Made by a program: the position numbers and the translations under genes. Below are positions 12,999 through 60,020 of a stretch of DNA of 64,000 nucleotides, piece by piece (the stretch's first letter is position 1; each line of letters opens with the position of its first letter). The notes under the pieces were generated by a model. That model worked only from the letters and a program-made list of their open reading frames with translations, made no database searches and was not told the DNA's origin. The stretch is from a virus (Duplodnaviria; Heunggongvirae; Uroviricota; Caudoviricetes). Location: positions 2,700-66,699 of IMG/VR virus record IMGVR_UViG_3300023202_000102; one strand, written 5' to 3'.

Positions 12999-13071
12999 GG
13001 GCCGATAGCACAACGGTCAGTGCGCCGGTCTCATAAACCGGTGGTTCTCAGTTCAAATCTGAGTCGGCCCA
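12999..13071 (+). tRNA. tRNA with anticodon CAT, elongator type, probably tRNA-Ile2 (lysidine substrate) rather than tRNA-Met; no encoded CCA
   Basis: Canonical cloverleaf: acceptor GGGCCGA/TCGGCCC, D-stem GCAC/GTGC, anticodon stem CCGGT/ACCGG with loop CTCATAA, T-arm CTCAG-TTCAAAT-CTGAG, discriminator A. G1-C72 is paired, so not an initiator. C4-G69 and C5-G68 match the TilS identity elements. Confidence 0.9.
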
Positions 13072-13084
13072 CTTGGAGGAAAAG

Positions 13085-13476: not shown

Positions 13477-13857
13477 ATGAGCGAAGTTACCAAAGAACAG
13501 GTTGTTGATTATCTTTCCAACCTTCCAGTCATTCAGATTTCAGAGCTTGTCAAAGAGCTTGAAGAGAAGTGGGGAGTGTCTGCCGCTCCTGTGATTCAGG
13601 GTGGTGTTGGGCCCGGACCTACTGATGAAGGTCCATCTGATGAAAAGACTGAGTTCGATGTTGTTCTGACTTCGTTTGGTTCTTCTAAGATGCCTATCAT
13701 TAAAGAGGTTCGTGCTCTCACTGGTCTTGGTTTGAAAGAAGCCAAGGAAAAGGTTGAGAGTGTTCCTTCAGTTCTCAAGGAAGGTATCTCCAAAGAGGAA
13801 GCCGAAGAGATCAAGGGCAAGATTGTCACAGCCGGTGGAGAGGTAGAGATCAAGTGA
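13477..13857 (+). CDS. rplL: Ribosomal protein bL12 (L7/L12)
   Basis: Near-collinear with bacterial L7/L12: N-terminal dimerisation helix, hinge '[18 protein letters not shown]', C-terminal domain '[40 protein letters not shown]...LKEG(I)[17 protein letters not shown]'. Confidence 0.88.
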
Positions 13858-15998: not shown

Positions 15999-16652
15999 AT
16001 GGGCAGTGGAGTAGATAGGCTATCAACATCTCCGCTGCCCTTTCTATATTTGGAGCAAATACGACCAATGAAAGAATTCATAGAGCTTGTTCTCATATCT
16101 CTAGAGCGTGATAACCTCATCAAATTAGGTAGCATTCTCTTCCTTCTCAGTTTCTGTCACTTTGTTGTTGACTGGGGTTTTCAGAGCCATAAGGAAGCAA
16201 TGAACAAAGCCACGAATCATAACATAAGGTTCGTGCATTGTTGCGTGTACACCATTGGAATGCTACCGTTGGTAGCTCTTCTTATTGGAGATCACACAAG
16301 GATAGGGCAGGCTGTCCTTACATGCGCAAGCGTCATGTGGATTAGCCACTTTCTCATTGATACATATATCCCAGTGTATCTGTGGGTCAAGTACATTAGA
16401 AGACCACCAAGCAAAGATGTAACAGAACTTGAGTACTTCAAAGATTTCGCATCAACTCCAATAGGCCTCTTCCTGGTAATAGCAATGGACCAGGTGTTTC
16501 ATTTACTATTTCTAATCCCAGTTGCGCTAACAATTATGTGGCCAACCTTTTATTATTATTGGGGATTGGTCTCTGGTTTCTTTGTTTTATTACTGTGTTG
16601 GTCGGTAGTGTTTGGAGTGAAAAAACTATATGCCATTCAAGAGAACAGATAA
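15999..16652 (+). CDS. Integral membrane protein (multi-pass), hypothetical
   Basis: 217 aa with about 5 hydrophobic helices (e.g. ILFLLSFCHFVV, LPLVALLIGD, IGLFLVIAMDQVFHLLFLIPVALTIMW, GLVSGFFVLLLCWSVVF). Confidence 0.5.
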   Translation: MGSGVDRLSTSPLPFLYLEQIRPMKEFIELVLISLERDNLIKLGSILFLLSFCHFVVDWGFQSHKEAMNKATNHNIRFVHCCVYTIGMLPLVALLIGDHTRIGQAVLTCASVMWISHFLIDTYIPVYLWVKYIRRPPSKDVTELEYFKDFASTPIGLFLVIAMDQVFHLLFLIPVALTIMWPTFYYYWGLVSGFFVLLLCWSVVFGVKKLYAIQENR

Positions 16653-17466
16653 AGGAAAAGTTCAATACCCAAATGGAATTTCCTCAGAAGATAGAAGGTT
16701 CTGTAGAAAAGTGTTCAACGAAATGGGTGAATACATCGATGTAGACGGCGATCCTAATGCACAAAAAGAACTTATCATTGCATGCTCTGGTGGTTTGGAC
16801 AGCACTGTGCTTGCGCATGTGTTTGCGCAAATGTGTATTATCTCTGGTCTAAAAAAGAATCGTGTTAAACTTGTGTATGTTGACCATGGGCTCCGAAATT
16901 TGGTTGAGTTACACCGGGATGCAACACACGTTATCAACCTTGCCGAAATGCTTGGATTCAATGGAGAGGTAATTAAGGTCACCCTTAATGAGGGTAATGT
17001 TCAAGAACAAGCTCGCATTGCTAGGTATGATGCCCTGGCAGCAATGGCTGTCCAAACAAGTTCGGGAGATTATGCCGATGTTTTACTGGCTCACCATGCC
17101 AATGACGTTGCAGAAACAAAGCTGTTTCAATTCCTTACAGGTCGAAAGGTTACCGGGATTGAATCAAATCTTTCTTGGTATATCAAATCTGAGCACGAAA
17201 AAGATCCCAACCCATTGGTGCCAAAGTGTGAATACACCATTGATTTTTTCAGACCCTTTCTAAATCTTACACGTTCTGATTTAGAAAGATACGCTAGGAT
17301 TTGGAACCTACAATGGGTGGAAGATTCTACCAATGGTACTAACAAGTACACACGAAACCGTATCCGTCATGAACTAATTCCATGGATTGAAAAAAATGTA
17401 AACCCAGGTGTTATCAACACACTAGTGGGGCTTCATGAAAAAGAAAGAGAAGCTGACGATACCTGA
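16630..17466 (+). CDS. tilS: tRNA(Ile)-lysidine synthetase TilS (PP-loop ATPase), short form
   Basis: PP-loop 'ACSGGLDSTVLAHVF'; TilS-specific 'AHHANDVAETKLFQFLTGRKVTGIE' (compare aHHxDDQaET..lRl.RG). Confidence 0.78.
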   Translation: MPFKRTDKGKVQYPNGISSEDRRFCRKVFNEMGEYIDVDGDPNAQKELIIACSGGLDSTVLAHVFAQMCIISGLKKNRVKLVYVDHGLRNLVELHRDATHVINLAEMLGFNGEVIKVTLNEGNVQEQARIARYDALAAMAVQTSSGDYADVLLAHHANDVAETKLFQFLTGRKVTGIESNLSWYIKSEHEKDPNPLVPKCEYTIDFFRPFLNLTRSDLERYARIWNLQWVEDSTNGTNKYTRNRIRHELIPWIEKNVNPGVINTLVGLHEKEREADDT

Positions 17467-18013: not shown

Positions 18014-18859
18014 ATGACTGATTGGTATGCACATGAACAGTTCCTCATTGATGAGGTTAAGAAGCTTGAAGAGGCCGAAGCGGCTTACGCTTTGCGCGAG
18101 GCCTGGAAGAAAATTTATGGACAGTATCCAAGTGATAAATCACTGGCGGTTCTTTGGGCAAAGTCTGCCCTTGAAACTGGTCGTTGGAAGATTATTCATT
18201 GTTACAACTTTGGTAACATTAAAAAGCTAGGAACTCATCGCGGTAATGATGACGGACATTACTTTACAATGTACAGGTGCTCTGAGATTCTAAATGGTAA
18301 AGAGGTTTGGTTTGATCCTCCGCATTACCAAACACATTTCAGAGCCTACAAGACAGTTGAAGCTGGTGCTGAAGATTACATTAGGTTTGTATCTCAAAAG
18401 AAAAGATACCTCAAGGCATGGCAAGAAGTCATTAACGGTGACCCACGGGCATACTCTCATGAGTTGAAAAAGGCGGGGTATTATACTGCGTCTGAGTCAT
18501 TGTATACCGCTGGTGTTGTTAGATTGTTTGATTCATTTATGAAAAGAAAGGATGAGCTTTTGTCTTGGGAACCAGAAGATAAAATTGATACCATTCCATC
18601 TCCGGCCCCTGAACCAGCCAATCCTATTGAAGAGGAACCTGTCAAAGAAGATCCAGAGGAAAAGATTGATACCAACATTGACAATGGGCCTCCACCATCA
18701 AAAGACTTTGATAATGACAATGAGATCACTGATGTTGATGCCGGGGTCGAGACGAGTGCTTCTAAAGAAATTGGCAAAAGTGCTAAGCCTATGTTCCTGA
18801 TGGCTGTGATTGTTGCTGCCATTGCTTGGGTTTCGCAATTCTTTCAAAGCTGCCAATAA
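18014..18859 (+). CDS. GH73-family N-acetylglucosaminidase (peptidoglycan hydrolase / endolysin-like) with C-terminal TM anchor
   Basis: 'LAVLWAKSALETGRW...NFGNIK' and 'LKKAGYYTASESLYTAGVVRLFD' resemble FlgJ/GH73 motifs (AQAALESGWG..N.FGIK; AGYATDP.Y); C-terminal 'MFLMAVIVAAIAWVSQFF'. Confidence 0.6.
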   Translation: MTDWYAHEQFLIDEVKKLEEAEAAYALREAWKKIYGQYPSDKSLAVLWAKSALETGRWKIIHCYNFGNIKKLGTHRGNDDGHYFTMYRCSEILNGKEVWFDPPHYQTHFRAYKTVEAGAEDYIRFVSQKKRYLKAWQEVINGDPRAYSHELKKAGYYTASESLYTAGVVRLFDSFMKRKDELLSWEPEDKIDTIPSPAPEPANPIEEEPVKEDPEEKIDTNIDNGPPPSKDFDNDNEITDVDAGVETSASKEIGKSAKPMFLMAVIVAAIAWVSQFFQSCQ

Positions 18860-18923: not shown

Positions 18924-19517
18924 ATGAAGTCAGCCACCTACGGCAAAAATAAGCAGGAAGGAAAACCCCCTGCGGTGATCCTTACGAACCCCAAGTACTC
19001 GTACAATGTGGGTGGCGCACAGCGTGCGTGCTCTTGTTGGGGTGTTTCTCAGCTGTGGTGGACGGGCAATCGTGTACGTTTTGAAGCAACTGAATCTGGA
19101 AAAGGCAACAAGAAAAGACTTCCAAGAGAAGAGCGAATGAAAGGATACATGGATGTTGAACTGCGACAGTTCGATTATCCATTTGATCAGTTCGACAAAA
19201 GCGTAACAACTGTTGCTATTGAACTGATACCTGGAGCCGAACCTCTACCAACATTCGAACACCCCGAAAACGCCGTGTATGTTTTCGGGCCAGAAGATGG
19301 TTCAATTGATTCTGTTACCAGAAAGCATTGCCATCGTTTTGTTTCCATTCCTGCTCATCACTGTATGAATCTTTCTATGGCTGTTGGGCTTGTTCTGTAT
19401 GATAGGTTCATTAAGATGAACCAAGATGTTAGACTTGAGGATATCCTCAAGGAGAATCGATATGATTTCACTGACCATAGGTTGGCAGCGAAAGAAATGG
19501 GATTAGTTTCAAGATGA
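18924..19517 (+). CDS. SpoU/TrmH-family RNA 2'-O-ribose methyltransferase
   Basis: SpoU motifs 'ILTNPKYSYNVGGAQRA', 'VYVFGPEDGSIDSV', 'VSIPAHHCMNLSMAVGLVLYD'. Confidence 0.6.
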   Translation: MKSATYGKNKQEGKPPAVILTNPKYSYNVGGAQRACSCWGVSQLWWTGNRVRFEATESGKGNKKRLPREERMKGYMDVELRQFDYPFDQFDKSVTTVAIELIPGAEPLPTFEHPENAVYVFGPEDGSIDSVTRKHCHRFVSIPAHHCMNLSMAVGLVLYDRFIKMNQDVRLEDILKENRYDFTDHRLAAKEMGLVSR

Positions 19518-19705: not shown

Positions 19706-20192
19706 TGAAGAAGATTTATCTTGCTGGTCCTACGTATTCAGGTCAGACTCAAAAGAGATAGGTAAGTTTCTCAAAGGGCTTTGTGAGGCTTTTGGTTTTG
19801 AAGGTGTGTATCCATTAGACAACGAGATATCAAACATCGAATCGAAACCAAGGCAAGCTCTTGGTAAAGAGATTGCTGAAGCAAATGTCGAACTCATTCA
19901 TGGGTGTGATTATGTTTTAGCAAACCTTGAACCTTTTCGAGGGCCAAGCGCAGACTGTGGAACAGTCTGGGAGTGTGCCTATGCTAAAGGTTTGGGAAAG
20001 ATGGTTGCTGGATACTCAAAGACAAAATCATTACCATACAAAGACAAAGTCCTCAACGTACTTCCTCATGATGGAATGATGGTAGAAGACTTTCACGCTT
20101 GGGATAACATCATGTTAGTGCATGGTATTGATTTTATGTGTAGTGACCCTCGTGTTGGTTTACAATGGCTTAGAGAACAGGACAAGAAATGA
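19705..20192 (+). pseudogene. Nucleoside 2-deoxyribosyltransferase-like (PF05014) gene with an apparent -1 frameshift after codon about 17
   Basis: ATG at 19705 gives the family N-terminus MKKIYLAGPTYSGQTQKR then TAG. The remainder (…EIGKFLKGLCEAFGFEGVYPLDNE…DCGTVWECAYAKGLGKMVAGY) is in the -1 frame (track ORF 19656..20192). The junction is in an A-run 'ACTCAAAAGAGATAG'. Confidence 0.55.
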
Positions 20193-20782
20193 TTCAAGAC
20201 ATATACCCTCCGGTTGTTGTTGAAACAACAATGAAAGGTGAGAAACATTGGGATATCTTTAGCCGTTTGATGAGGGACCGCATCATCATTCTTGGTGATG
20301 TAATAGATGATGATGTTGCTAACATCATTATTGCGCAGATGTTGTACCTTCAAAACGAGGATTCGGAGAAGGACATCGATCTTTACATCAACTCTCCCGG
20401 TGGAATCGTTACATCAGGTATGGCCATACTTGATACGATGAATTACATCAAGTGTAATGTGAAGACTATCTGTATGGGTCAAGCCTCATCAATGGGCGCT
20501 CTGCTTCTTGCCGCAGGAACCAAAGGCAAAAGAAAAGCATTACCCAATGCACGAGTAATGATCCACCAACCGCTTGGGGGTGTGCGAGGACAGGCCTCAG
20601 ACATTAAGATCCAAGCCGACGAGATAGATAAGATCAAGAATAAAATCACAGATATTCTGGTAAAAGCTACCGGACAAAATCGTGACAAGGTCTACCAAGA
20701 TATAGACCGTGACTTCTATCTATCAGCCGAAGAGGCCAAAGAGTATGGCCTTATTGATGAAGTAATTTCTTCTGGTGACTAA
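20189..20782 (+). CDS. clpP: ATP-dependent Clp protease proteolytic subunit ClpP (copy 1)
   Basis: Collinear with ClpP; catalytic Ser in '[11 protein letters not shown]', His in '[10 protein letters not shown]', Asp in '[12 protein letters not shown]'. Confidence 0.9.
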
Positions 20783-27132: not shown

Positions 27133-27927
27133 ATGGCTCAAACAACATTACAGCAAAGGCAGATAGGATATGAAAAGATTACTGACCAACGAATCATGGG
27201 GAGAGTTCCTGTGGTTATCTCATTGGATGCGAAGAAATTCCTCACAGTAACTAAGTCTGTTCAAAAACCTTTCTGTCACAAGACAATGGCCCTCCTAAAT
27301 GACACAATGCTTTCTATGGTAAAACAAATAGATGGCTGTGTGTTGGGGTACCAATATAGTGATAAGATCATTTTGATTCTGAAGAATGACAAGAACGCTG
27401 ACCCCTGGTATGGGAACCGCACATTGCCAATGGCAACAGTTGCATCCTCAATGGCTACCTGGGAGTTCATGAGTAACTTTTATCAGATGGACAACCCTCC
27501 CGATCTGGAAGGATCCATTCTATGGAAAGGTCATGCATTTGGTTTGCCTGATCATAATGAGGTTGTGAACTATCTCATTCATCATCAGTATCAGTGCATG
27601 CATCATTCTGTAAACAAAGCTGTCTACTCTTTACTTGAAACAAGGTATGGAGATCAAACGGCCGAACTTCTCAAAGAGAAGAACATGGATGATAGGAAGC
27701 GGATTCTGGAAGAGGCGGGGCTAGACCTGTCCGACTTTCCCAGCTCTTATCTTCATGGTTCCTTAGTGTATAAGATCCCCAAGATGGAAGAGACATCTGA
27801 GGGTCATATGCAGAGGACCCGATGGATGTTAGATATGAAAATCCCGCTGTTCACAGAGATGCGGGAGATGATTCATACCATCCTAGATACTGGCAGTGAT
27901 GTGTTCAAGCCGGAGCGCGATGCGTGA
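27133..27927 (+). CDS. Thg1-like protein (tRNA-His guanylyltransferase family, 3'-5' nucleotidyltransferase)
   Basis: 'GRVPVVISLDAKKF' (compare VVVRLDGRNF), 'QYSDKIILILK' (compare GQSDEYSFVFK), 'TLPMATVASSMATWEF' (compare ASKFMTHVASQFAS); length 264 aa fits. Confidence 0.55.
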   Translation: MAQTTLQQRQIGYEKITDQRIMGRVPVVISLDAKKFLTVTKSVQKPFCHKTMALLNDTMLSMVKQIDGCVLGYQYSDKIILILKNDKNADPWYGNRTLPMATVASSMATWEFMSNFYQMDNPPDLEGSILWKGHAFGLPDHNEVVNYLIHHQYQCMHHSVNKAVYSLLETRYGDQTAELLKEKNMDDRKRILEEAGLDLSDFPSSYLHGSLVYKIPKMEETSEGHMQRTRWMLDMKIPLFTEMREMIHTILDTGSDVFKPERDA

Positions 27928-28811: not shown

Positions 28812-28939
28812 AATTATCAAAGAACCGCATAGGAAAACCTCAACCTACTTAACGCCATCCCGAGTAGTGTACCAAGTTGAGGCTGCGGTGATTGTACTCT
28901 TCAAACTATTCAAAGCGAGGTGGCTCTCGCTTTTTCATT

Positions 28940-29404
28940 ATGAAGATCATATTTCTAGACATCGATGGTGTCCTAAATAGCTTACCCTTTCTGAAAAAGA
29001 AAGCGGAAGAGTACAAAGACGGAGTATGGGATAGCAACAATCTTGACATGATAGATCCTCTTGCTGTCAATTTGCTCAACCAACTTGTGCAAGATACTGG
29101 TGCCAACATAGTTGTTTCTTCGTCATGGCGCATAGGTTACACTGTTGTTTACTTGCAAAACATACTAATGGCTTCTGGTCTTGAGCATCCAGAAAGAATA
29201 ATAGGGACAACATCATCTCAAACTCATAAAGATCGTGGGTTTGAAATATCACTTTGGTTACAACAAGTTTCAGTTGATTCATTTGTTGTACTCGACGATG
29301 ATTCTGACATGACAGGGGTCATGGATAATTTAGTTCAAACCTCATTGGATAAAGGTTTGACACAACAAGATATTGATAAGGCTAGAAAGATTCTAAATGC
29401 ATAA
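28940..29404 (+). CDS. HAD-superfamily phosphatase-like protein
   Basis: 'MKIIFLDIDGVLNS' is HAD motif I (DxDG); the track ORF starts at 28892 but the motif-bearing Met is at 28940. Confidence 0.5.
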   Translation: MKIIFLDIDGVLNSLPFLKKKAEEYKDGVWDSNNLDMIDPLAVNLLNQLVQDTGANIVVSSSWRIGYTVVYLQNILMASGLEHPERIIGTTSSQTHKDRGFEISLWLQQVSVDSFVVLDDDSDMTGVMDNLVQTSLDKGLTQQDIDKARKILNA

Positions 29405-35438: not shown

Positions 35439-37187
35439 ATGAAAAACAAGAAGGCACTGTGGATTGTTGGCTCTATGATTGCTATGTTACTGGTTGTTTA
35501 TCTATCAGTTCCAAGCATCATTAGGGCCATCATCGCATCAAAAGCGGAGGGTGTTGTCGTCAAAGATATCTCCTGGTCTTTGACATCGTTGACTCTCAAA
35601 AACATTTTCATCGATAGGAAAGAAGCAAAGGGTGCTGTCACCAAGGTTGAGGCTCGGTTCTCATGGGATAGCCTGAAGCCATCTGTAAGTGATATTCAGG
35701 TTCATGGTGGTAAGCTCACGGCCTTTATCTCAAAGCCCTCTGTGAAGCCCGCTGAGGCCAAGGACAAGGCCGAGCACCAAGAGCTGTCGGACAAGCTCAA
35801 AGAGCTGCCTGTATCGATAGTTGAGCTGGATGAGGTCAGTCTTGACCATAACTTTGGCCAGGCTCGGGTTCTGAAGCTGCAATACTTTCGTGACGCCCCC
35901 GTGATTCAAAAGTCAGGATTTGATCGTAAGCCCCTCACGGTTATGGCTGAACAAGTTATTGTAAAGCCCAAGTCTATATTCGGAGAGTTAAGTATTAACA
36001 ATGTAGAGTACTCTTTAGTAACGGAGTACTTGGACATTGGTGTAGTCCAGGGGAGTGTGCTCAACGTTGATCTTCCTGGACTACCAAAGGATGAGCTTGG
36101 GTTTACTCTCAATGAGGCCGAGATTGATCTTGCTCTCAAGACAGTTAACGCTGAACGTGCCACGATTCCTGGAGTTGGTGTTGCGGAGAAGATTACCTTC
36201 CGTGCATTTGATGAACACGCTCCTGCCTTTGCTATTGGCGAGCTACGTTCCGAACACCCTTGGTTCACAACTAACGTAAAGTTCATCTCAGGATCTGTTA
36301 GTTCTAGTGGCGAGTTCTTGATCGATGTTGGAGGGGTAAGAACAGAAGGCAACTACAAGAAGCTCCAAGTAAAAGGTTCGGGTTCCTGCTTTGATTGGAA
36401 CGAAGCTATCATGACAGGTGTGAATGATAGCATCTACAGTCACGCTGTGCATCCCCCTTTGTTTGAAAGTGGCAACATTGAGTTTGAGATTGACCCAACT
36501 AAATTAAAGCTAAGTCTCAAACAGGATTGTAAAGCTAGCTGCTCCAATCCTTTGATGACACAGCTGCGTCGAAGGAAGGGTAATGGGCCATCACATCTCA
36601 AAGGCCATGACGGGTTTGCTCATCTCACCTACACACCCGATGGTAAACCATCTAAGATGCGCAGCACTGGTAGGGGACATGTAAGATGGGCGTCTCTATC
36701 GCTCATGTCTCCACAAGTAAGGAATGCTTTTATTACGCTGGAGGACCCTACTTTCAATATACATGACGGCATTGTCATGGCTTCTGTTATTGCCTCGTTC
36801 AAGCAGAACATCAAGCTGGGTAAGTTTCATGTTGGTGGATCAACAATCACACAGCAACTTGCAAAAAACATCTGGCTCACCCGAGATAAAAATATTGTCC
36901 GTAAAGCTAAGGAAGCTTTGCTTGCCTGGGCATTAGAGGATTGCTTTTCCAAGGATGAGATCCTCGAACTGTATCTCAACGTGGTTGAGTTTGGTCCTAA
37001 TGTGTACGGTATCTATGATGGTGCGCAGTATCGGTTCGATAAATCATTCGTTGATCTTACCGAAGAGGAAGCTTTTTATCTCGCCAGTATTTTGCCACAA
37101 CCCAACTCTGCTCAACCTCCTGGTGATCTGTCTAGGACACAGAAGTTGATGACTAAGGTTGCTATTTTATTCGAAGATAATGAATAG
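35439..37187 (+). CDS. Membrane-anchored protein with a C-terminal GT51 peptidoglycan glycosyltransferase (MtgA / PBP transglycosylase) domain
   Basis: N-terminal TM 'LWIVGSMIAMLLVVYLSV'. C-terminal 'ITLEDPTFNIHDG', 'GGSTITQQLAKNIWL', 'EALLAWALEDCFSKDEILELYLNVVEFGPNVYGI', 'LTEEEAFYLASILPQPN' match all GT51 signature blocks. Confidence 0.8.
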   Translation: MKNKKALWIVGSMIAMLLVVYLSVPSIIRAIIASKAEGVVVKDISWSLTSLTLKNIFIDRKEAKGAVTKVEARFSWDSLKPSVSDIQVHGGKLTAFISKPSVKPAEAKDKAEHQELSDKLKELPVSIVELDEVSLDHNFGQARVLKLQYFRDAPVIQKSGFDRKPLTVMAEQVIVKPKSIFGELSINNVEYSLVTEYLDIGVVQGSVLNVDLPGLPKDELGFTLNEAEIDLALKTVNAERATIPGVGVAEKITFRAFDEHAPAFAIGELRSEHPWFTTNVKFISGSVSSSGEFLIDVGGVRTEGNYKKLQVKGSGSCFDWNEAIMTGVNDSIYSHAVHPPLFESGNIEFEIDPTKLKLSLKQDCKASCSNPLMTQLRRRKGNGPSHLKGHDGFAHLTYTPDGKPSKMRSTGRGHVRWASLSLMSPQVRNAFITLEDPTFNIHDGIVMASVIASFKQNIKLGKFHVGGSTITQQLAKNIWLTRDKNIVRKAKEALLAWALEDCFSKDEILELYLNVVEFGPNVYGIYDGAQYRFDKSFVDLTEEEAFYLASILPQPNSAQPPGDLSRTQKLMTKVAILFEDNE

Positions 37188-37334
37188 GGCAGGATACATA
37201 GTACTTCTCATCGCTTTGTTGATGGGTTTGTGGACGTTTAGTTACACAGGAATTTTCATGTTGTACCGCTTCGGACTTTTGCTTGGCGGGTTCGCCACTG
37301 GGTTTTTGGTGCACAAGATATTCTTTTCAAGGTA
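37182..37334 (+). CDS. Tiny membrane protein (50 aa) overlapping the GT51 stop
   Basis: MNRAGYIVLLIALLMGLWTFSYTGIFMLYRFGLLLGGFATGFLVHKIFFSR; below the track cutoff. Confidence 0.3.
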
Positions 37335-37385
37335 ATTGTGTTTAAGGAAATGATATGACTGATAAAGCAAAACAAACAGAGCAAG

Positions 37386-37904: not shown

Positions 37905-38152
37905 GGTAGAAGTTCAAGGATGTCAGAGTCATGAAGCTCGGTAACATCAGAGGGGTCGTACAACAAGAATCCTTTCTCAAATTTTGTTAACTGATTTGTT
38001 TTCTTGATGATGGTTATCAAATCATCTTTTCCAGTCACCTTTATATGACTTGTCATAATTCTGACAATTAATCCTCCCTCAGGGAAAAGTAAAAGCAGCT
38101 TGTCCGCTATCTTTTTTAGGAAAAACAAGTCAACATTCATAACAATATACAA
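37901..38152 (-). CDS. Small hypothetical protein on the minus strand
   Basis: 83 aa ORF in a gap on the plus strand. Confidence 0.3.
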   Translation of the reverse strand: MYIVMNVDLFFLKKIADKLLLLFPEGGLIVRIMTSHIKVTGKDDLITIIKKTNQLTKFEKGFLLYDPSDVTELHDSDILELLP

Positions 38153-38156
38153 AACT

Positions 38157-38954
38157 ATGTGTACTCTATCTGTAGCCTTCTATCCAAGAACTCCTCGGCC
38201 ATTTACTATTGTCGCTAATAGAGATGAAAATCCTGAGCGTCCATCTGAACCCTGGGGGTGGAGAAATTTTGGCGCTATTAATGGGTATATGGGTGGGGCC
38301 GGAGAGATGGTAAGAATATTTTCTCCTCTTGATGTTCTTGGTGGTACTTGGATTGGTGTAAATGACAGGGGTATGTTCTGCGCCATTACTAATTGGGATA
38401 TCGATCTTGATTGGGAAAGGCCAGCAGAAGGGTTCATATCAAGGGGTTATTTTGTTAACGACACACTGAGATGTACGTCTGTTTCTAACGCTAAGAATAT
38501 GTGGAACAAGCTTGACCATAAAAAATACAAACCATTCAATGCGATCTTTGGGTGGGTATCGAAAGAAGGATATACATCTGCCTGGTCAATTACCAATGAC
38601 ACTCAAAGTATAGTTTGTAAACGCCTGAATGCTGGTCTTCACATCTCCACTGGTGAGGGGTTAAATGTTTCAACAAATGAGCGTGATAAATACATTCGTA
38701 AAAGCATTAGGTTTGAAAGTTGGGAACAGCCTATTGATGTGGATGATCTGAAGGGCGTTCTAAAATCTCATCATATGGGTATCGGTGATGATAGGTCTGT
38801 GTGTCAGCATGACGAATCTCATAAATGGGAAACCAGATCACAATCAAGCATCATAATAATGCAAAGCACCATTTTAGTGGGTCATGTTGATGGTCACCCA
38901 TGTGAAGCTCAAGAGAAGGATTGGACACATGAAAGTCTTAGTGACGGCAGGTAG
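38157..38954 (+). CDS. NRDE/TANGO2-family protein
   Basis: Starts MCTLSV (the family's N-terminal Met-Cys) and carries the eponymous 'IVANRDENPERPS' motif. Confidence 0.5.
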   Translation: MCTLSVAFYPRTPRPFTIVANRDENPERPSEPWGWRNFGAINGYMGGAGEMVRIFSPLDVLGGTWIGVNDRGMFCAITNWDIDLDWERPAEGFISRGYFVNDTLRCTSVSNAKNMWNKLDHKKYKPFNAIFGWVSKEGYTSAWSITNDTQSIVCKRLNAGLHISTGEGLNVSTNERDKYIRKSIRFESWEQPIDVDDLKGVLKSHHMGIGDDRSVCQHDESHKWETRSQSSIIIMQSTILVGHVDGHPCEAQEKDWTHESLSDGR

Positions 38955-39630
38955 TACACAAACACCCATTGATAAGGTTCGGTGTATCTCTAACATCTTC
39001 AAAGGAAGTACTGGGTTTAATATTGCTAAGGCAATTGGTTACGCTGGAAACGAGGTTGTTCTGATTGCAAACAAAAAAGTTCTGTATGAATACCTCGGTG
39101 ATCTTCCAAACCGCTTTGACATACATACATATAAAACGTATGATGAACTTGCTGAATTAATGGCTAGACTAATTCCTGATGGAGAGTTTGATGCCATCAT
39201 TCATTCAGCAGCTGTGTCTGATTACAAAGCAACAGACGTAATGGTTGGTGAAAAGGTTACTATTGATGGGGTAACCAAACCGGTATACATGAAGTCTGTC
39301 ATGAAGGGTAAGGTTAAATCTGACCACGATGAATTGTACATCAAGCTTGAACGTACAGAGAAGCTTATAGATAAAATTAGAACTGAGTGGGGCTTCGAAG
39401 GAAAGCTCATCAAGTTCAAGCTTGAGGTAGATGTCACAGACGAAGAGTTGCTTTCCATCGCAAAGTCCAGTCGAGAGCACTCCGGCGCGGACTATATTGT
39501 TGCAAACGCTCTTGACACTTTCAAGGATTGGGACACGCCAAGTATGTTCATCCTTGGTAATGAACTGCAAGAAAAGACATCTCGTAGAGAGCTGCCAATG
39601 AAACTGCACAAACTTCTTGAAAAGAAATGA
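38929..39630 (+). CDS. coaB: Phosphopantothenate-cysteine ligase (CoaB domain, stand-alone)
   Basis: 'MKVLVTAGSTQTPIDKVRCISNIFKGSTGFNIAKA' (compare [29 protein letters not shown]), 'SAAVSDYKA', 'IVANAL'. Confidence 0.75.
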   Translation: MKVLVTAGSTQTPIDKVRCISNIFKGSTGFNIAKAIGYAGNEVVLIANKKVLYEYLGDLPNRFDIHTYKTYDELAELMARLIPDGEFDAIIHSAAVSDYKATDVMVGEKVTIDGVTKPVYMKSVMKGKVKSDHDELYIKLERTEKLIDKIRTEWGFEGKLIKFKLEVDVTDEELLSIAKSSREHSGADYIVANALDTFKDWDTPSMFILGNELQEKTSRRELPMKLHKLLEKK

Positions 39631-40244
39631 CAAACATTGTACTAGGTGTTTCTGGATCGATTGCCAGCATCATGACTCCAGAGATTGTAAAAGCTCTGAG
39701 ACCTATTGGTAATGTGAAGGTTGTACTGACAAAGTCTGCGCTCACTCTCATGCAAAAAGCTCCTGAGAAATTGCAGCATGAGATGGCCACATCTCTAGAA
39801 GAGCAAGACCTGTATGATGATCATGTTGAGTGGAAGTGGAAGAGGCTGGGTGATCCTATTCAGCATGTTGAGTTAAAGAAGTGGGGAGATGTTCTTGTTA
39901 TGGCTCCGCTTAGTGCTAATACATTGGCCAAGATGGCGGCCGGAATGTGTGATAATCTTTTGACTTCTGTGTACAGGGCCTGGCAAAGGAACAAGCCGAT
40001 TGTACTAGCTCCAGCAATGAACACAGATATGTGGGAACATCCCGTCACCGAAGAGAGCTTGTACAGACTTAGAAGCAGACATCACATTACAGTGCAAGAT
40101 GATGGGGTTTATCGATACTATGATAAGCTTAAAATTGTTAACCCTATCGTAAAGAAACTTGCGTGTGGAGATACTGGTACTGGTGCTTTGGCTAATGCAG
40201 AAGATATAGCCGGGGTTGTGAGGGAGGTTGTGAGTGCCCGTTAG
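39627..40244 (+). CDS. coaC: Phosphopantothenoylcysteine decarboxylase flavoprotein (CoaC domain)
   Basis: 'IVLGVSGSIASIMTPEIVKAL', 'VLVMAPLSANTLAKMAAGMCDNLLTSV', 'ACGDTGTGAL' match the CoaC/Dfp N-domain. Confidence 0.75.
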   Translation: MTNIVLGVSGSIASIMTPEIVKALRPIGNVKVVLTKSALTLMQKAPEKLQHEMATSLEEQDLYDDHVEWKWKRLGDPIQHVELKKWGDVLVMAPLSANTLAKMAAGMCDNLLTSVYRAWQRNKPIVLAPAMNTDMWEHPVTEESLYRLRSRHHITVQDDGVYRYYDKLKIVNPIVKKLACGDTGTGALANAEDIAGVVREVVSAR

Positions 40245-51416: not shown

Positions 51417-52085
51417 ATGCGAAAAACCAATCTTAATCCGATATTCTTTGAGAAAACAAAAGACGGCGAGGCGATGTATGATGTATCATCTCGTCTAGTA
51501 AAAGACAGAGTCATCTACATTGACTGTGAGATAGATGAAGAGATAGCTGCACAAGTGACTGCATTGTTATTCCTACTTGATAGAGAAGCTGATGATAAGC
51601 CAATCAAGATGTGGATCAATTCACCTGGTGGCGACCTTACAGGTTTCTTTGCTATCTATGACATGATGCATCGAGTCAGGGCTCCTATTAGAACTGTTTG
51701 TGTTGGGCAGGCGTGCTCTGCCAGTGCCCTTCTCTTAGCCTCAGGTTCTCCTGGGATGCGATATGTAATGCCTAACTCCCGTATTATGATTCATCAGATT
51801 CAGATTGGTGGGCTGGAAGGGTCTAACGCAGAGATTGAGATAGAAACAAAAGAATTGAACCAGGTTCAAGATCGTCTTACAGAAATCCTTGCTCGTCATT
51901 CTGGTCATACCAAAGCAAAGATTAAGAGAGATACCAAGATGGATAAGTGGTTCAGTGCGGAAAGAGCTATTGAGTATGGGCTGGCAGATAAAATTCTTAA
52001 TCCCATCAAGGAAGCTCCCGACCTCATTACCAGAGAGCCTAAGAGAGGTAAAAAGGTTGAGGTAGATGATGGTACAGAGGAATGA
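51417..52085 (+). CDS. clpP: ClpP protease subunit (copy 2, divergent paralog)
   Basis: 'WINSPGGDLTGFFAIYD', Ser in 'VGQACSASALLLA', His in 'SRIMIHQ', Asp in 'KIKRDTKMDKWFSAERAIEYGLAD'. Confidence 0.85.
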   Translation: MRKTNLNPIFFEKTKDGEAMYDVSSRLVKDRVIYIDCEIDEEIAAQVTALLFLLDREADDKPIKMWINSPGGDLTGFFAIYDMMHRVRAPIRTVCVGQACSASALLLASGSPGMRYVMPNSRIMIHQIQIGGLEGSNAEIEIETKELNQVQDRLTEILARHSGHTKAKIKRDTKMDKWFSAERAIEYGLADKILNPIKEAPDLITREPKRGKKVEVDDGTEE

Positions 52086-58332: not shown

Positions 58333-59445
58333 ATGATTCTTTTCGTACAGTTATTCATTCCAGCAATCATTGCGCTCGTTGGTTTCTTTTTCCTGAAGGA
58401 CAAGGGCGGCAAGCAAACCATTGATTGGAAAGAGTTCTTGGCACAGATGGCGGCACAGCTTTTGATTGCTGGCATCACTGTGGCAATCATTCTAAGCTCT
58501 AATACTTCTGACGTTGAAACCATCTCCGGTTACGTTACTGACAAAAAGAAGAATAAGGTTTCATGTGAACACTCTTATGATTGTAATTGTCGTGAAGAGT
58601 GTACCGGATCTGGTGAGAGTAAAAGTTGTTATCAAGTATGTGATACCTGTTATGATCACTCTTATGATTGGGACTGGGATGTGTATACAACGGTGGGAGG
58701 GTTTACAATTTCCCGCATTGATAGTCGGGGCACTCGCCAACCATCGCGCTGGAGTGCTGTAAGGATTTCTGAGCCTGTTGTAAGACATCACTCATTCACA
58801 AATTACATCAAATCTGCGCCGGATACTTTGTTTCGCCAGGAGGGTTACAAAGGAATCGCTGTTCCTGCCTATCCTGATAACATATACGATTACTGGCATA
58901 TCAATCGGTTCGTAGGAGATGCACCTGTTCGTAATGCCAAGGCATGGAACAATGATCTGATGAAGATCAATGCAGACATTGGAGCGAAGAAGCAGGTAAA
59001 CATGATCATTGTCACGACCACTAAAGGTCATGACTTTTACTTTGCCCTCAAACAAGCTTGGCTTGGCGGCAAGAAGAACGATGTTGTTCTTGTCTTGGGC
59101 TTGCAGGGTGAGGAGATTGCCTGGGCTGATGCCTTGGCATGGTCACAAGATGAATCTATCAAGGTGGAGCTTCGTGAAGCCATGATGGAGATTGGTGTAA
59201 TGGACCGAACGAAAGTCATTAGTGCTTTCAAAGCGAACGTTCTCAACCACTACAAGCGTAAACCCATGAAGGACTTTGAATACTTGAAGTCCTCAATCAC
59301 ACCAACAACAACCCAGTGGATTGTGTCCCTTGTTATTGGGATCATTGTCTCGGTGGGTCTAACAATTCTATTCCACATTTACGATCCCTTTGAACCAAAT
59401 AGGCGTTTCGGCTATCGTTCAAGGCTTTACAGAAGAAGGTACTAA
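58333..59445 (+). CDS. Bitopic membrane protein with Cys-rich extracytoplasmic domain
   Basis: N-terminal TMs, '[39 protein letters not shown]', C-terminal TM + basic tail; directly upstream of the LemA-like gene. Confidence 0.5.
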
Positions 59446-60020
59446 TGTCAAAAGGTTTAATGATTGCACTTGGTCTCGGCGTATTCGTACTGCTTTTTGG
59501 AGCAGTCGGTTGCGGGACTGTAGTCTCTTTTAACAATGGTTGTGTTCGGCAAGAGGCTGGGCTTGAAGCCCAGTACAAGCAGAACCAGAATAACTATGCT
59601 TCGTACTTCAACAAGATCAAAGAAATGGCTCAGGTTCCTGAGATGTATTCAGATGATCTTAAGAAGGTTTACGACTCAGCCATCCAAGGTCGTTACGGTC
59701 AGGACGGCTCCAAAGCGATGTTCAATTGGATCCAGGAGCACAACCCGAACTTTGATGCAAGCCTGTACAAGCAGCTTCAGCGCGCCATGGAGTCTGGTCG
59801 TGATTCATTTGAGGCGAATCAAAAAATGCTTCTTGACAAGAAGCAGGTTTATGAGGTTAAATTGCAGTCATTCCCCGGCAATATTTTGGCCGGATTCTTG
59901 GGGTGGCCGAAGAAGGACATCTCCAAGTTTGATATTGTGATTAATGAACAGACTGAGAAGGCCTTTGAGACAAAGAAGGCCGGACCAATCTCACTACGAG
60001 ATGAAACCAAGTCAGATTAA
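59445..60020 (+). CDS. LemA-family membrane protein (tentative)
   Basis: N-terminal TM; C-terminal '[19 protein letters not shown]' resembles the LemA '...FPnnlvA..fGF' end motif. Confidence 0.45.

What the first reader, a model, noticed from the sequence alone, without database searches (positions are those of the whole stretch)
35439..37334. Phage-encoded biosynthetic peptidoglycan glycosyltransferase (GT51/MtgA-like) on a long membrane-anchored protein
The C-terminal ~170 aa of this 582-aa protein contain every GT51 signature block in order: EDxxFxxHxG ('LEDPTFNIHDG'), 'GGSTITQQLAKN', '…EILELYLNVVEFGPNVYGI', 'EEEAFYLASILPQPN'. They are preceded by a TM helix and ~400 aa of unrelated sequence. 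Phages routinely carry peptidoglycan-degrading enzymes; a lipid II-polymerising transglycosylase is not an expected phage function. It could rebuild or redirect septal or lateral wall synthesis, act as a superinfection-exclusion or 'healing' factor after entry, or supply non-crosslinked glycan. A tiny membrane ORF (37182..37334) overlaps the stop and may be a partner. The same window also carries a GH73 hydrolase, an SPFH lipoprotein, a PspA homolog, a LemA-like protein and an AAA+ ATPase, suggesting a coordinated envelope-remodelling module.
Basis: partly seen in the sequence, partly recalled or inferred. Interest (0 to 1): 0.82.

Follow-up and report, generated by a model that had tools for sequence, protein, structure and literature searches.

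The report
Huge-phage wall polymerase with lipid groove
Very large bacteriophages encode their own cell-wall-building enzyme, fused to a domain shaped like the lipid-carrying bridges of bacterial and eukaryotic cells, which suggests these viruses build or repair the host wall as well as destroying it.

Summary

- **Conservation:** both catalytic glutamates (E435, E492) and motifs 1-4 are invariant in 126 divergent family representatives.
- **Correction:** the second catalytic Glu lies in RKxxE (VRKAKEALLA).
- **The 'unrelated' ~355 aa:** two structure-comparison methods match them best to lipid-groove 'beta-taco' proteins (LPD-3/BLTP1, Vps13 and Atg2 N-termini, LptC/LptD, TamB). The domain is inserted exactly between the membrane anchor and the GT51 domain.
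- **Cysteines:** two covarying cysteines (C368, C502) suggest a disulfide that locks the two domains together.
- **Distribution:** the fusion occurs on huge-phage contigs (20 of 37 IMG/VR contigs exceed 200 kb). It was not found in 185,579 cellular species genomes or 50,697 GenBank phage records.
- **Context:** no neighbour is conserved, so the 'envelope module' idea is not supported. The small downstream ORF recurs only in the closest relative.

My best reading is an active, phage-made lipid II polymerase whose groove domain handles the polyprenyl substrate. The activity and the lipid binding are inferred, not shown.

The parts
35439..37187 (+). Complete CDS of 582 aa plus stop codon: membrane anchor, beta-taco domain and GT51 glycosyltransferase.
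   Evidence: ORF list. Identical protein P0001 occurs on a 193.8-kb metagenome contig. Coordinates verified.
35439..35543 (+). Residues 1-35: basic N-terminus (MKNKK) and a single transmembrane helix, N-terminus inside, continuing as a helix to about residue 35.
   Evidence: Hydropathy of all 11 close homologues. AF2 helix 2-35. A weak match in the same position to the TamB N-terminus covers residues 17-69 (hhalign probability 59%).
35544..36608 (+). Residues 36-390: all-beta N-domain with about 22 strands and a lipid-groove (beta-taco, chorein-N/LptC/TamB-like) fold. It has no Pfam family.
36387..36389 (+). Codon of C317, invariant in 126 of 126 representatives. Predicted disulfide partner of C364.
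   Evidence: Family census. The pairing is inferred from joint invariance. Proximity in the model could not be checked because no coordinates are exposed.
36528..36530 (+). Codon of C364, invariant in 126 of 126 representatives.
36540..36542 (+). Codon of C368. It covaries with C502, giving a predicted inter-domain disulfide.
   Evidence: Both present in 104, both absent in 20, discordant in 2. Fisher p = 2.7e-21. The joint loss falls in about 9 clades on a crude tree.
36609..37184 (+). Residues 391-582: GT51 peptidoglycan glycosyltransferase module. It includes the N-terminal beta-hairpin that follows the membrane anchor in canonical PBPs.
36738..36770 (+). GT51 motif 1, LEDPTFNIHDG. It holds catalytic E435 (nt 36741-36743) and D436.
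   Evidence: E435 and D436 are conserved in 126 of 126 family members and 109 of 109 bacterial GT51 domains. The equivalent residue E100 is the one mutated (E100Q) in the moenomycin-bound S. aureus MGT structure (PMC6053601). Its catalytic role is recalled from the GT51 literature.
36834..36869 (+). GT51 motif 2, GGSTITQQLAKN.
   Evidence: G466, S468, T469 and Q473 are invariant.
36897..36926 (+). GT51 motif 3, VRKAKEALLA. It holds the second catalytic Glu, E492 (nt 36912-36914).
   Evidence: R488, K489 and E492 are conserved in 126 of 126 family members. K489 and E492 are also conserved in 109 of 109 bacterial GT51 domains.
36942..36944 (+). Codon of C502, a family-specific cysteine inside the GT51 domain and predicted partner of C368.
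   Evidence: Cys in 106 of 126 family members. Bacterial GT51 domains have mostly R, K or N at this position.
36951..37010 (+). GT51 motif 4, KDEILELYLNVVEFGPNVYG, with the family-specific signature NVVEFGP (E517, nt 36987-36989).
   Evidence: K505, Y512 and N514 are invariant or nearly so. E517 is Glu in 125 of 126 family members, against Tyr in 79 of 109 bacterial GT51 domains.
37125..37166 (+). Degenerate motif-5-like segment, DLSRTQKLMTKVAI.
   Evidence: It aligns with LQRRNLVLKRM of Aquifex PBP1a in the profile alignment. Only the first Arg and the hydrophobic positions are kept.
37180..37335 (+). Small ORF of 51 aa with two hydrophobic helices. Its ATG overlaps the GT51 stop codon. Whether it is a real gene is uncertain.
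   Evidence: Sequence. The gene caller of the near-identical contig did not call it. The other family loci examined have no counterpart. The closest homologue has a hydrophobic ORF at the same position, but the similarity is not significant, p about 0.09. A terminator-like hairpin lies inside it at 37284-37297.

Best explanation
The gene encodes an enzymatically active, monofunctional peptidoglycan glycosyltransferase (GT51, a lipid II polymerase). The phage makes it inside the infected cell and inserts it into the host inner membrane with its bulk outside the cytoplasm.

In every cellular GT51 checked here, the catalytic domain directly follows the membrane anchor. This huge-phage family instead has a ~355-residue beta-taco domain between the anchor and the enzyme. 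That domain has the fold of lipid-groove carriers (chorein-N of Vps13/Atg2/BLTP1, LptC/LptD, TamB).

I propose the following:
- The groove domain binds the undecaprenyl tail of lipid II, of the growing chain, or both.
- It hands the substrate to the catalytic cleft, to which it is probably locked by a C368-C502 disulfide.
- It thereby replaces the membrane and anchor-helix contact that normal GT51 enzymes use.
- This could let the polymerase work some nanometres above the membrane, close to the sacculus.

The likely benefit to the phage is to maintain, patch or reinforce the host wall during the long infection cycle of a very large phage.

**Shown:** the domain identities, intact catalytic residues under strong constraint, the insertion point, the topology, the cysteine covariation, and the restriction to phage contigs.

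**Inferred:** catalytic activity, lipid binding by the groove, off-membrane operation, and the biological role.
For: **GT51 identity and completeness.**
- PF00912 at 156 bits.
- Colinear alignment to the Aquifex and P. aeruginosa PBP1a GT domains, including the jaw region and motif 5.

**Constraint on catalysis.**
- E435, D436 and E492, plus the key positions of motifs 1-4, are invariant or at least 96% conserved in 126 representatives. These share only about 50% identity in the GT domain and about 20% in the N-domain.

**Fold of the N-domain.**
- Foldseek gives high probability only to LPD-3, the Vps13 N-terminus, the PE-bound Atg2 N-terminus, LptD and LptC.
- A weak sequence match in the same position to the TamB N-terminal profile has probability 59% and E = 9e-5.

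**Insertion point.** The family profile aligns from residue 21 of the P. aeruginosa PBP1a chain. From my knowledge of class A PBPs, that hairpin directly follows the anchor.

**Coupling and location.**
- C368 and C502 covary (104 both, 20 neither, 2 discordant), with the joint loss in several clades.
- C317 and C364 are invariant.
- The N-terminus-inside anchor is present in all members checked.

**Architecture is obligatory.** All 126 members of 500-700 aa carry both domains. The N-domain was never found alone.

**Phage restriction.**
- 37 IMG/VR contigs carry the fusion, 20 of them over 200 kb.
- Homologue contexts look like phage genomes.
- The best 80 of 596 cellular-genome hits cover only the GT51 part.
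- No GenBank phage record has a full-length match.

**A host with an outer membrane is likely**.
Against: - No biochemical data exist, so activity is inferred from conservation only.
- The structural models are predictions from shallow alignments (11 and 24 sequences, pLDDT about 79).
- Pfam finds no AsmA, DUF748, Chorein_N or LptC domain. Only 1 of 11 members shows DUF748, at E = 0.33.
- hhalign to E. coli AsmA and LptC is negative, at probability 0.3% and 1.8%.
- The strand-amphipathicity test for a hydrophobic face was inconclusive: 1.64 against a shuffled value of 1.36 +/- 0.22.
Groove hydrophobicity, domain geometry and Cys-Cys distances were therefore not measured.
- About 355 residues is too short to bridge a whole periplasm.
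- No conserved partner genes point to a pathway.
- The host is unknown. The Myxococcota hint conflicts with the window's 43% GC.
Confidence: 0.55

Rival explanations
1. The GT51 domain is an active polymerase, but the beta-rich N-domain is only a rigid stalk, spacer or protein/peptidoglycan-binding scaffold. It positions the enzyme or recruits host partners and does not bind lipid. Lipid II is reached at the membrane in the usual way, with the protein lying along the membrane or flexing.
For: - There is no sequence-level membership in any lipid-transfer family.
- The N-domain profile also matches vertebrate AHNAK2 repeats, so part of its signal is generic periodic beta-strand sequence.
- The amphipathicity test was inconclusive.
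- The jaw subdomain is canonical in length and sequence, so membrane contact may still be used.
Against: - Foldseek gives high probability only to lipid-groove proteins and under 0.25 to everything else.
- The N-terminal helix followed by the first hairpin aligns in the same position with the TamB N-terminus.
- A rigid, disulfide-locked rod between the anchor and the enzyme makes simultaneous membrane contact of both ends geometrically awkward. This is inference, not measurement.
Confidence: 0.2
2. The enzyme is active but works against the host. An unregulated polymerase with no transpeptidase drains lipid II and undecaprenyl phosphate into uncross-linked strands. That would block growth or division as part of host takeover, or weaken the wall to time lysis.
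For: - The protein has no transpeptidase domain.
- It is a stand-alone gene with no conserved synthetic partners.
- From established knowledge: several small phages lyse cells by starving the wall of lipid II (PMC12596118 mentions phiX174 protein E and MraY). Uncross-linked glycan synthesis creates a futile cycle under beta-lactam treatment.
Against: - From established knowledge: cellular monofunctional GT51 enzymes (MtgA, SgtA, SgtB) are tolerated, and their strands are cross-linked by other PBPs.
- The same window carries membrane-protective gene types (PspA, SPFH, LemA-like), which fits envelope maintenance thematically.
- A sink would not need an elaborate, strictly conserved 355-residue groove domain disulfide-locked to the enzyme.
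- The window has its own candidate endolysin.
Confidence: 0.12
3. The GT51 domain does not polymerise. It acts as a lipid II-binding or PBP-partner-binding decoy, or exploits its lysozyme-like head subdomain to cut glycan strands.
For: The GT51 head subdomain resembles lambda lysozyme (PMC6053601). Family-specific substitutions near motif 4 (E517, P520, V515, W479) show that the active-site surroundings differ from cellular enzymes.
Against: - Every residue known to be needed for polymerisation and for pyrophosphate and lipid II binding is invariant across 126 divergent sequences. A binder or a hydrolase would not require that.
- No lytic transglycosylase or glycoside hydrolase family matches.
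Confidence: 0.05
4. The locus is not viral. It is a bacterial or other mobile-element gene on misclassified contigs.
For: - No terminase or major capsid gene was identified inside this window.
- IMG/VR and GenBank 'phage' sets contain host DNA. Examples are the MaAM05 mtgA region and the GT51-only class A PBP loci L047-L078.
Against: - The window has a PHROG virion structural protein (1.7e-65), head-maturation proteases, HNH endonucleases, tail-fibre-like giant ORFs and a very low Pfam hit rate.
- Homologue contexts are dense arrays of small unknown ORFs with homing endonucleases.
- None of the best 80 hits in 185,579 species genomes extends into the N-domain.
Confidence: 0.03

Closest known systems
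Monofunctional peptidoglycan glycosyltransferases (MtgA of E. coli; MGT/SgtB of S. aureus; GT51, PF00912)
   Same: - A single N-terminus-inside membrane anchor and a GT51 domain with no transpeptidase.
- All catalytic and substrate-binding motifs are present.
   Different: - In these enzymes the GT51 domain follows the anchor directly. Here about 355 residues of beta-taco are inserted between them.
- The score is below the NCBIfam MtgA equivalog cutoff, 132 against 183.
- Family-specific residues are E517, C502, P520, W479 and V515.
- The gene is carried by huge phages, not cells.
GT domain of class A penicillin-binding proteins (Aquifex aeolicus PBP1a 2oqo/3nb6; P. aeruginosa PBP1a 4oon)
   Same: These are the closest by sequence: E = 1e-26 for the single sequence and 3e-46 for the family profile. 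The alignment is colinear from the post-anchor beta-hairpin to motif 5.
   Different: There is no transpeptidase domain (PF00905 absent) and no OB/UB2H-type insert. The extra domain is N-terminal to the GT domain, not C-terminal.
AsmA-like proteins of bacteria with an outer membrane (TamB, YhdP, AsmA) and eukaryotic bridge-like lipid-transfer proteins (Vps13, Atg2, BLTP1/LPD-3)
   Same: - An N-terminal hydrophobic helix is followed by an elongated beta-sheet groove.
- These are the best fold matches for the N-domain by two methods.
- A weak match in the same position to the TamB N-terminus has probability 59%.
   Different: - The N-domain is much shorter: about 355 aa against 600 to over 4000.
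- It has no membrane-contact domain at the far end. It ends in an enzyme instead.
- No Pfam or confident profile-level homology was found.
- I know of no member of these families fused to a glycosyltransferase. That statement rests on my own knowledge plus literature searches.
Lpt bridge components LptC, LptA and the LptD N-terminal domain (OstA-like beta-jellyroll)
   Different: There is no sequence relationship (hhalign probability 1.8%). The Lpt proteins form a multi-protein relay powered by an ABC transporter. Here the groove is fused to an enzyme and no transporter is linked.
Virus-encoded surface-glycan synthases such as chlorovirus hyaluronan and chitin synthases (recalled from the literature; a conceptual analogue only)
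   Same: A virus brings its own polymerase to build, not degrade, a polysaccharide on the infected cell's envelope.
   Different: The enzyme family is unrelated (GT2 against GT51). The substrate is a nucleotide sugar, not lipid II, and the host is eukaryotic. This was not tested here.

Membership tests
GT51 peptidoglycan glycosyltransferase (Pfam PF00912 Transgly) | Profile score above the curated gathering threshold | tested here: met
   156.4 bits against a cutoff of 27, E = 6.4e-46, residues 413-569. All 11 close homologues and all 126 representatives of 500-700 aa match.
GT51 peptidoglycan glycosyltransferase (Pfam PF00912 Transgly) | Motif 1 EDxxFxxHxG with the catalytic Glu | tested here: met
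   LEDPTFNIHDG. E435 and D436 are conserved in 126 of 126, H442 in 125 of 126 and G444 in 126 of 126.
GT51 peptidoglycan glycosyltransferase (Pfam PF00912 Transgly) | Motif 2 GxSTxTQQ | tested here: met
   GGSTITQQ. G466, S468, T469 and Q473 are invariant.
GT51 peptidoglycan glycosyltransferase (Pfam PF00912 Transgly) | Motif 3 RKxxE with the second catalytic Glu | tested here: met
   VRKAKEALLA. R488, K489 and E492 are conserved in 126 of 126.
GT51 peptidoglycan glycosyltransferase (Pfam PF00912 Transgly) | Motif 4 KxxILxxYxN | tested here: met
   KDEILELYLN. K505 is 99% conserved; Y512 and N514 are 100% conserved.
GT51 peptidoglycan glycosyltransferase (Pfam PF00912 Transgly) | Motif 5 RRxxVL | tested here: inconclusive
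   Only a degenerate version, SRTQKLMTKV, aligns with RRNLVLKRM of Aquifex PBP1a.
GT51 peptidoglycan glycosyltransferase (Pfam PF00912 Transgly) | Lysozyme-like head plus jaw fold | tested here: met
GT51 peptidoglycan glycosyltransferase (Pfam PF00912 Transgly) | Moenomycin-sensitive polymerisation of lipid II | not testable with these tools
   Requires a biochemical assay.
MtgA orthologue group (NCBIfam TIGR02070, equivalog) | Score above the equivalog cutoff, and a GT51 domain immediately after the membrane anchor | tested here: not met
   132.4 bits against a cutoff of 182.65. About 355 residues separate the anchor from the GT51 module.
Class A penicillin-binding protein (TIGR02074; PF00912 plus PF00905) | A C-terminal transpeptidase domain | tested here: not met
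   There is no PF00905 hit. The protein ends 13 residues after the Pfam GT51 match. The score is 143 bits against a cutoff of 508.75.
AsmA-like / chorein-N / bridge-like lipid-transfer (repeating beta-groove) superfamily | An N-terminal hydrophobic helix followed by an elongated open beta-sheet groove (fold level) | tested here: met
   - Foldseek probability 0.99-1.00 to LPD-3, the Vps13 N-terminus and the Atg2 N-terminus. All unrelated folds score under 0.25.
AsmA-like / chorein-N / bridge-like lipid-transfer (repeating beta-groove) superfamily | Detectable sequence or profile homology to AsmA, DUF748, TamB_N or Chorein_N families | tested here: inconclusive
   - Pfam: none, apart from DUF748 at E = 0.33 in 1 of 11 members.
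- hhalign against AsmA: probability 0.3%.
- hhalign against the TamB N-terminal profile: probability 59%, E = 9e-5, 48 columns in the same position.
AsmA-like / chorein-N / bridge-like lipid-transfer (repeating beta-groove) superfamily | A hydrophobic lining of the groove | tested here: inconclusive
   The alternate-residue hydropathy difference is 1.64 against a shuffled value of 1.36 +/- 0.22.
AsmA-like / chorein-N / bridge-like lipid-transfer (repeating beta-groove) superfamily | Bridges two membranes, with a distal membrane- or partner-binding end | tested here: not met
   The distal end is a GT51 enzyme. The domain is only about 355 residues and about 22 strands long.
AsmA-like / chorein-N / bridge-like lipid-transfer (repeating beta-groove) superfamily | Binds and transfers lipid | not testable with these tools
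   Needs lipid-binding, crosslinking or transfer assays.
LptC/LptA/OstA-like beta-jellyroll | Sequence-family membership | tested here: not met
   None appears in Pfam, NCBIfam or PHROGs. The top fold matches are biosynthetic GT51 enzymes.

The most novel reading that the evidence does not exclude
The beta-taco is a dedicated polyprenyl-lipid conduit. It lifts lipid II out of the inner membrane and feeds it to a polymerase held off the membrane, next to the sacculus.

If so, this would be the first bridge-like lipid-transfer domain specialised for a cell-wall precursor, and the first fused directly to the enzyme that consumes its cargo. It would give huge phages a self-contained wall-synthesis device that bypasses the host's membrane-bound, partner-regulated synthases.
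Probability: 0.3. Interest if true: 0.92.

Novelty: new variant of a known kind. Interest (0 to 1): 0.8.

Why it matters
- **Phage biology.** Phages are known for destroying peptidoglycan or blocking its synthesis. A widespread family (at least 126 clusters at 50% identity) found only on phage contigs, mostly huge ones, that carries a fully conserved lipid II polymerase would mean these viruses also build wall. That points to active maintenance or re-engineering of the host envelope during long infections.
- **Cell-wall enzymology.** The architecture poses a sharp question. GT51 enzymes are thought to need direct membrane contact through the jaw subdomain and the anchor helix. Here that position is taken by a lipid-groove domain. 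This offers a natural experiment on how lipid II is captured and whether glycan polymerisation can be uncoupled from the membrane surface.
- **Lipid transport.** It would extend bridge-like groove domains to viruses, to polyprenyl-linked substrates and to direct enzyme coupling.
- **Practical use.** The protein is small, stand-alone and easy to express. The activity, moenomycin sensitivity, lipid binding and predicted disulfide are all directly testable.

Tried and rejected
1. **Giant proteins.** Proteins of 3,000-6,200 aa matched the N-domain profile at E down to 1e-107. I first took them for giant phage or bacterial groove proteins. They are vertebrate AHNAK2, so the match reflects periodic amphipathic beta-strand repeats. 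I rejected it as evidence of homology.
2. **Microcystis phage MaAM05.** Its annotated mtgA looked like a jumbo-phage precedent. The gene lies among secF, glyS, fabI and engB, which is bacterial DNA. Rejected.
3. **GT51-only hits in viral collections.** IMG/VR loci L047-L078 and short GenBank 'phage' contigs carry ordinary class A PBPs or fragments without the N-domain. They are not members of this family.
4. **Conserved synteny.** All-against-all clustering of neighbours in 41 loci found nothing shared by more than 9 of 33 dereplicated groups. The recurrent neighbours are a dNMP kinase, a nucleoside deoxyribosyltransferase-like protein, VWA and SWIM proteins, and unknowns.
5. **SLT-like neighbour.** An exported protein recurs in 10 loci and shows ES...CLMQ...YASG motifs by eye. 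It has no Pfam or PDB support and no homologue in the window. I kept it only as a lead.
6. **Small downstream ORF as a conserved partner.** It is absent downstream in the other family loci examined. In the closest homologue a similar ORF sits at the same position, but the alignment is not significant.
7. **Sequence-level placement of the N-domain.** Pfam, PHROGs, NCBIfam and a PDB profile search found nothing. hhalign to AsmA and LptC was negative. Only TamB gave a weak signal.
8. **Strand amphipathicity** as a proxy for a hydrophobic groove was inconclusive.
The afdb50 library was unavailable.
10. **Promoter, terminator and Rfam scans** around the gene found nothing above chance.
11. **Literature searches** for phage GT51, phage mtgA, AsmA-like proteins in phages, jumbo phage with lipid II, and PF00912 with phage found no precedent.
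12. **DNA-level search** of 30-45 kb of the window against GenBank phages found no match.

Full report

Yes. An ATG-initiated ORF runs from 35439 to 37187 on the + strand and encodes 582 aa (codon positions verified). The quoted motif strings are all present and in order.

- The C-terminal part matches Pfam PF00912 (Transgly) at E = 6.4e-46 and 156 bits, against a gathering score of 27. The match covers profile positions 12-168 of 178.
- NCBIfam places it nearest the PBP1a-family and MtgA models but below every curated cutoff. It is a GT51 domain but not an orthologue of any named cellular enzyme.
- By sequence, the closest solved structures are the Aquifex aeolicus PBP1a glycosyltransferase domain (E about 1e-26) and other class A PBPs and MtgA.

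**2. Is the enzyme likely to be active?**

I collected the family with one word-indexed search and one exhaustive profile search that used only the N-terminal 405 residues. The profile search returned 195 representatives at 50% identity.

- All 126 distinct representatives of 500-700 aa also carry the C-terminal GT51 domain.
- Across these 126, E435, D436, F439, G444, S468, T469, Q473, N477, R488, K489, E492, Y512, N514 and G524 are 100% conserved.
- Identity to the window protein is about 50% in the GT domain and about 20% in the N-domain.
- The same catalytic and substrate-binding positions are invariant in 109 bacterial GT51 domains aligned to the same model.
- A study of the GT51 jaw subdomain lists the equivalent conserved residues of motifs I-III around the deep pocket below the catalytic site of S. 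aureus MGT. The moenomycin-bound structure it re-refines is the E100Q mutant, and E100 corresponds to E435 here (PMC6053601).

From established GT51 literature, that residue is in motif 3 (RKxxE), here E492 in VRKAKEALLA. E517 in NVVEFGP is a family-specific signature: 125 of 126 family members have Glu, while bacterial GT51 domains have Tyr in 79 of 109. Other family-specific residues are C502, P520, W479 and V515. Together these argue for a single origin of the phage clade.

**3. What are the 'unrelated' ~400 residues?**

No Pfam, NCBIfam or informative PHROG family matches them. Both the full-length model and a second model of residues 1-411 show the same layout. The second model was built on 24 diverse homologues (pLDDT 79.2). 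A long N-terminal helix (residues 2-35, containing the membrane span) is followed by about 22 beta-strands up to about residue 362.

- **Foldseek, an independent method.** It separates the candidates more cleanly. Only LPD-3, the Vps13 N-terminal fragment, the PE-bound Atg2 N-terminal domain, LptD and LptC have high probability (0.84-1.00). All other folds score under 0.25.
- **Sequence level.** hhalign finds nothing against E. coli AsmA or LptC. Against the TamB N-terminus it finds a weak match in the same position. The segment just after the membrane helix aligns with TamB residues 29-76. Probability is 31% with one TamB sequence and 59% (E = 9e-5) with a 20-sequence TamB profile.
- **Hydrophobic face.** A test for alternating hydrophobic and polar faces on the strands was inconclusive. 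Model coordinates are not exposed, so I could not inspect the groove directly.

My conclusion is that the N-domain has the fold class of lipid-groove (beta-taco, chorein-N/LptC-like) proteins. Membership of the AsmA-like sequence superfamily is unproven.

**4. How are the two domains joined?**

The family profile aligns to P. aeruginosa PBP1a from residue 21 of the crystallised chain. The family segment 'YeaYdkkgklfeRevg...' pairs with 'LKVYSEDGKLISEFG...'. From my knowledge of class A PBPs, that hairpin directly follows the membrane anchor. The GT51 module therefore starts at about residue 391. The beta-taco is inserted exactly between the anchor and the enzyme, so its far end sits where the anchor helix normally is.

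The GT51 literature states that the hydrophobic base of the jaw subdomain embeds in the membrane to reach lipid II. From memory of the membrane-bound S. aureus MGT structure, the anchor helix also contributes to substrate binding. Replacing that environment with a lipid groove is therefore mechanistically suggestive.

Four cysteines add to the picture.

- C317 and C364 are invariant.
- C368, at the end of the N-domain, and C502, inside the GT51 domain where bacteria mostly have R, K or N, covary. Both are present in 104 sequences and both absent in 20. Two are discordant, one of which is an alignment slip. Fisher p = 2.7e-21.
- The joint loss is spread over about 9 clades on a crude identity tree, so it is not a single inherited event.

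I infer an intradomain disulfide and an inter-domain disulfide. That implies an oxidising extracytoplasmic location and a rigid coupling of the groove to the enzyme. Proximity in the model could not be checked.

**5. Where does the gene live?**

*The window.* It has little similarity to known phages at the DNA level, but its content is phage-like:

- tail-fibre-like giant ORFs;
- a PHROG virion structural protein (1.7e-65), head-maturation/ClpP-type proteases, HNH endonucleases, a sigma factor and an endolysin;
- an NAD-dependent ligase;
- a tRNA;
- a ribosomal protein L7/L12 gene.

*The contig.* The identical protein lies on a 193.8-kb metagenome contig.

*Homologue contexts.* Contigs of 130-458 kb carry dense arrays of small ORFs with no Pfam hits, together with GIY-YIG homing endonucleases.

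*Viral collection.* Scanning IMG/VR with the family alignment returned 71 loci. Of these, 37 encode the complete anchor, N-domain and GT51 architecture. Their contigs are over 200 kb in 20 cases and 100-200 kb in 7, with a maximum of 529 kb.

*Cellular genomes and isolated phages.* The same scan of one genome for each of 185,579 bacterial and archaeal species returned only ordinary GT51 domains. None of 50,697 GenBank phage records has a match covering more than 35% of the protein. The one annotated 'jumbo phage mtgA' among them lies in bacterial DNA.

So the fusion appears restricted to uncultivated phage contigs, most of them very large.

*Host.* The host is unknown, but a bacterium with an outer membrane is likely.

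- The named nearest relatives of the L7/L12 gene are all Myxococcota.
- A conserved membrane protein of the window has about 500 relatives, and the hosts tabulated are Gram-negative genera.
- The paired cysteines fit a periplasm.
- The 43% GC of the window argues against Myxococcota specifically.

**6. Gene neighbourhood**

- The gene sits in a tight co-directional array. The upstream ORF stops 7 nt before its ATG.
- There are no promoter, terminator or RNA-family signals above chance.
- Across 41 loci (33 dereplicated groups), no neighbour is shared by more than 9 groups. None of the shared neighbours occurs in the window. Representatives of the recurrent neighbours have no cell-wall domain.
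They lie 3 to 25 kb away, so there is a shared theme but no demonstrated module.
- The 51-aa two-helix ORF that overlaps the stop codon (37180-37335) has no counterpart downstream in the other family loci examined.
- The closest homologue (39% identity) does have a small hydrophobic ORF with the same overlapping start. The sequence similarity between the two is not significant: no BLASTP alignment, and p about 0.09 against shuffles.
- A terminator-like hairpin lies inside the window's copy. Whether this ORF is a real gene is open.

**7. Mechanism**

*Shown:*
- a bitopic protein with the N-terminus inside;
- a complete GT51 domain under strong constraint;
- a lipid-groove-type fold inserted at the anchor-enzyme junction;
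- covarying cysteines linking the two domains;
- an obligatory fusion;
- restriction to phage contigs, most of them very large.

*Inferred, with my estimated probability:*
- The protein polymerises host lipid II in the periplasm (about 0.8).
- The groove binds the polyprenyl tail of the substrate or product and presents it to the cleft (about 0.35-0.4).
- This lets polymerisation occur off the membrane, nearer the sacculus. About 22 strands at about 0.48 nm each would give up to roughly 10 nm. That figure is a rough estimate from general beta-sheet geometry, not a measurement.
- The purpose is to maintain or reinforce the wall during a long infection (about 0.3).

*Rivals:* a passive stalk or scaffold role for the N-domain, a lipid II-draining sabotage role, a non-polymerising role, and misclassified non-viral DNA. 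Each is scored in its own section.

**8. Novelty**

Literature searches for phage-encoded GT51 or mtgA, AsmA-like proteins in phages, jumbo phages with lipid II, and PF00912 with phage found no description of such a protein. The catalytic domain is a known kind. The architecture (lipid-groove domain between anchor and GT51, with a disulfide lock) and its distribution on phage contigs are new. I therefore rate it a new variant of a known kind, with high interest.

Noticed in passing
window 13477-13857 (+): Phage-encoded ribosomal protein L7/L12 (Pfam Ribosomal_L12 3e-28 plus the N-terminal dimerisation domain). The nearest named cellular relatives, at 63-67% identity, are all Myxococcales or Polyangiaceae. 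That is a possible host clue but conflicts with the window's 43% GC.
   Followed up: partly
window 38100-40244 (+): Directly downstream of the GT51 region lie a TANGO2-family protein (38100-38954), a CoaB-like DFP domain protein (38884-39630) and a CoaC-like flavoprotein (39627-40244). This looks like a split phage-borne coenzyme A (phosphopantothenoylcysteine) pathway step.
   Followed up: no
window 20189-20782 and 51417-52085 (+): Two ClpP-family protease paralogues sit about 30 kb apart in one phage window (Pfam CLP_protease 1.6e-80 and 2.6e-61). They also hit PHROG head-maturation protease families.
   Followed up: no
window 16630-17466, 18924-19517, 27133-27927, 28892-29404 (+): A cluster of tRNA/RNA modification and repair functions: a PP-loop (TilS-like) protein, a SpoU methylase, a Thg1-like tRNA-His guanylyltransferase and HAD_SAK_2. 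A tRNA-Met lies at 12999-13072.
   Followed up: no
window 58333-60020 (+): A 370-aa protein with three membrane helices lies immediately before a LemA-like lipoprotein (lipobox LLFGAVGCG). The 370-aa protein has about 500 relatives (39-40% identity) in isolated phages. The hosts tabulated are Gram-negative genera (Xanthomonas, Aeromonas, Salmonella, Klebsiella, Prevotella and others), and all copies are annotated as hypothetical.
   Followed up: partly
window 18014-18859 (+): A GH73-like (glucosaminidase) protein with a C-terminal hydrophobic segment. It is probably the window's endolysin candidate (Pfam 1.8e-8; PHROG endolysin 6.3e-10). The assignment of these hits to this particular ORF was made by eye from the translation.
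   Followed up: partly
proteins P0121, P0174, P0262 and 10 others (not in the window): The N-domain profile matches the central repeats of vertebrate AHNAK2, up to 25 repeats and E = 1e-107. This is a striking convergence of periodic amphipathic beta-strand sequence, and it could mislead automated annotation of either family.
   Followed up: yes
L006 (GenBank MW495066.1, 'Microcystis phage MaAM05', 112467-124877): The annotated mtgA of this 274-kb 'phage' record is flanked by secF, glyS, gatD, engB and fabI. The region, and perhaps the whole record, looks like bacterial chromosome.
   Followed up: partly
L001 14922-15773, L013 9150-9848 and 8 other family loci: An exported protein of 216-304 aa recurs near the GT51 gene in 10 loci, from 55 bp to 6.8 kb away. 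It has conserved 'ES.FR..VD.G.GK...GD.G.SWCLMQ' and 'YASG' motifs that by eye resemble SLT-type lytic transglycosylases. It has no Pfam or PDB support and no homologue in the window.
   Followed up: partly
L001 11690-12775; L160 59-1126: A DUF4419 protein lies next to the GT51 gene in two separate lineages (33% identity between them) but not in the window.
   Followed up: partly
window 37284-37297 (+): A terminator-like GC hairpin followed by a T-run lies about 100 nt after the GT51 stop codon, inside the small hydrophobic ORF. It is either the terminator of the GT51 transcript or a coincidence. Terminator-like sites in the region are within the chance range.
   Followed up: partly
window 320-12612 (-): A block of four very large minus-strand ORFs of 596, 1160, 904 and 1163 aa, with a 256-aa ORF between the second and third. 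One carries four Laminin_G_3 domains. The others have essentially no database matches. They are probably tail-fibre or receptor-binding proteins.
   Followed up: no
L002 19091-21620: A related huge-phage contig carries DUF444 (YeaH-like) and SpoVR (YcgB-like) genes side by side. These are the partners of the PrkA kinase stress module of bacteria.
   Followed up: no
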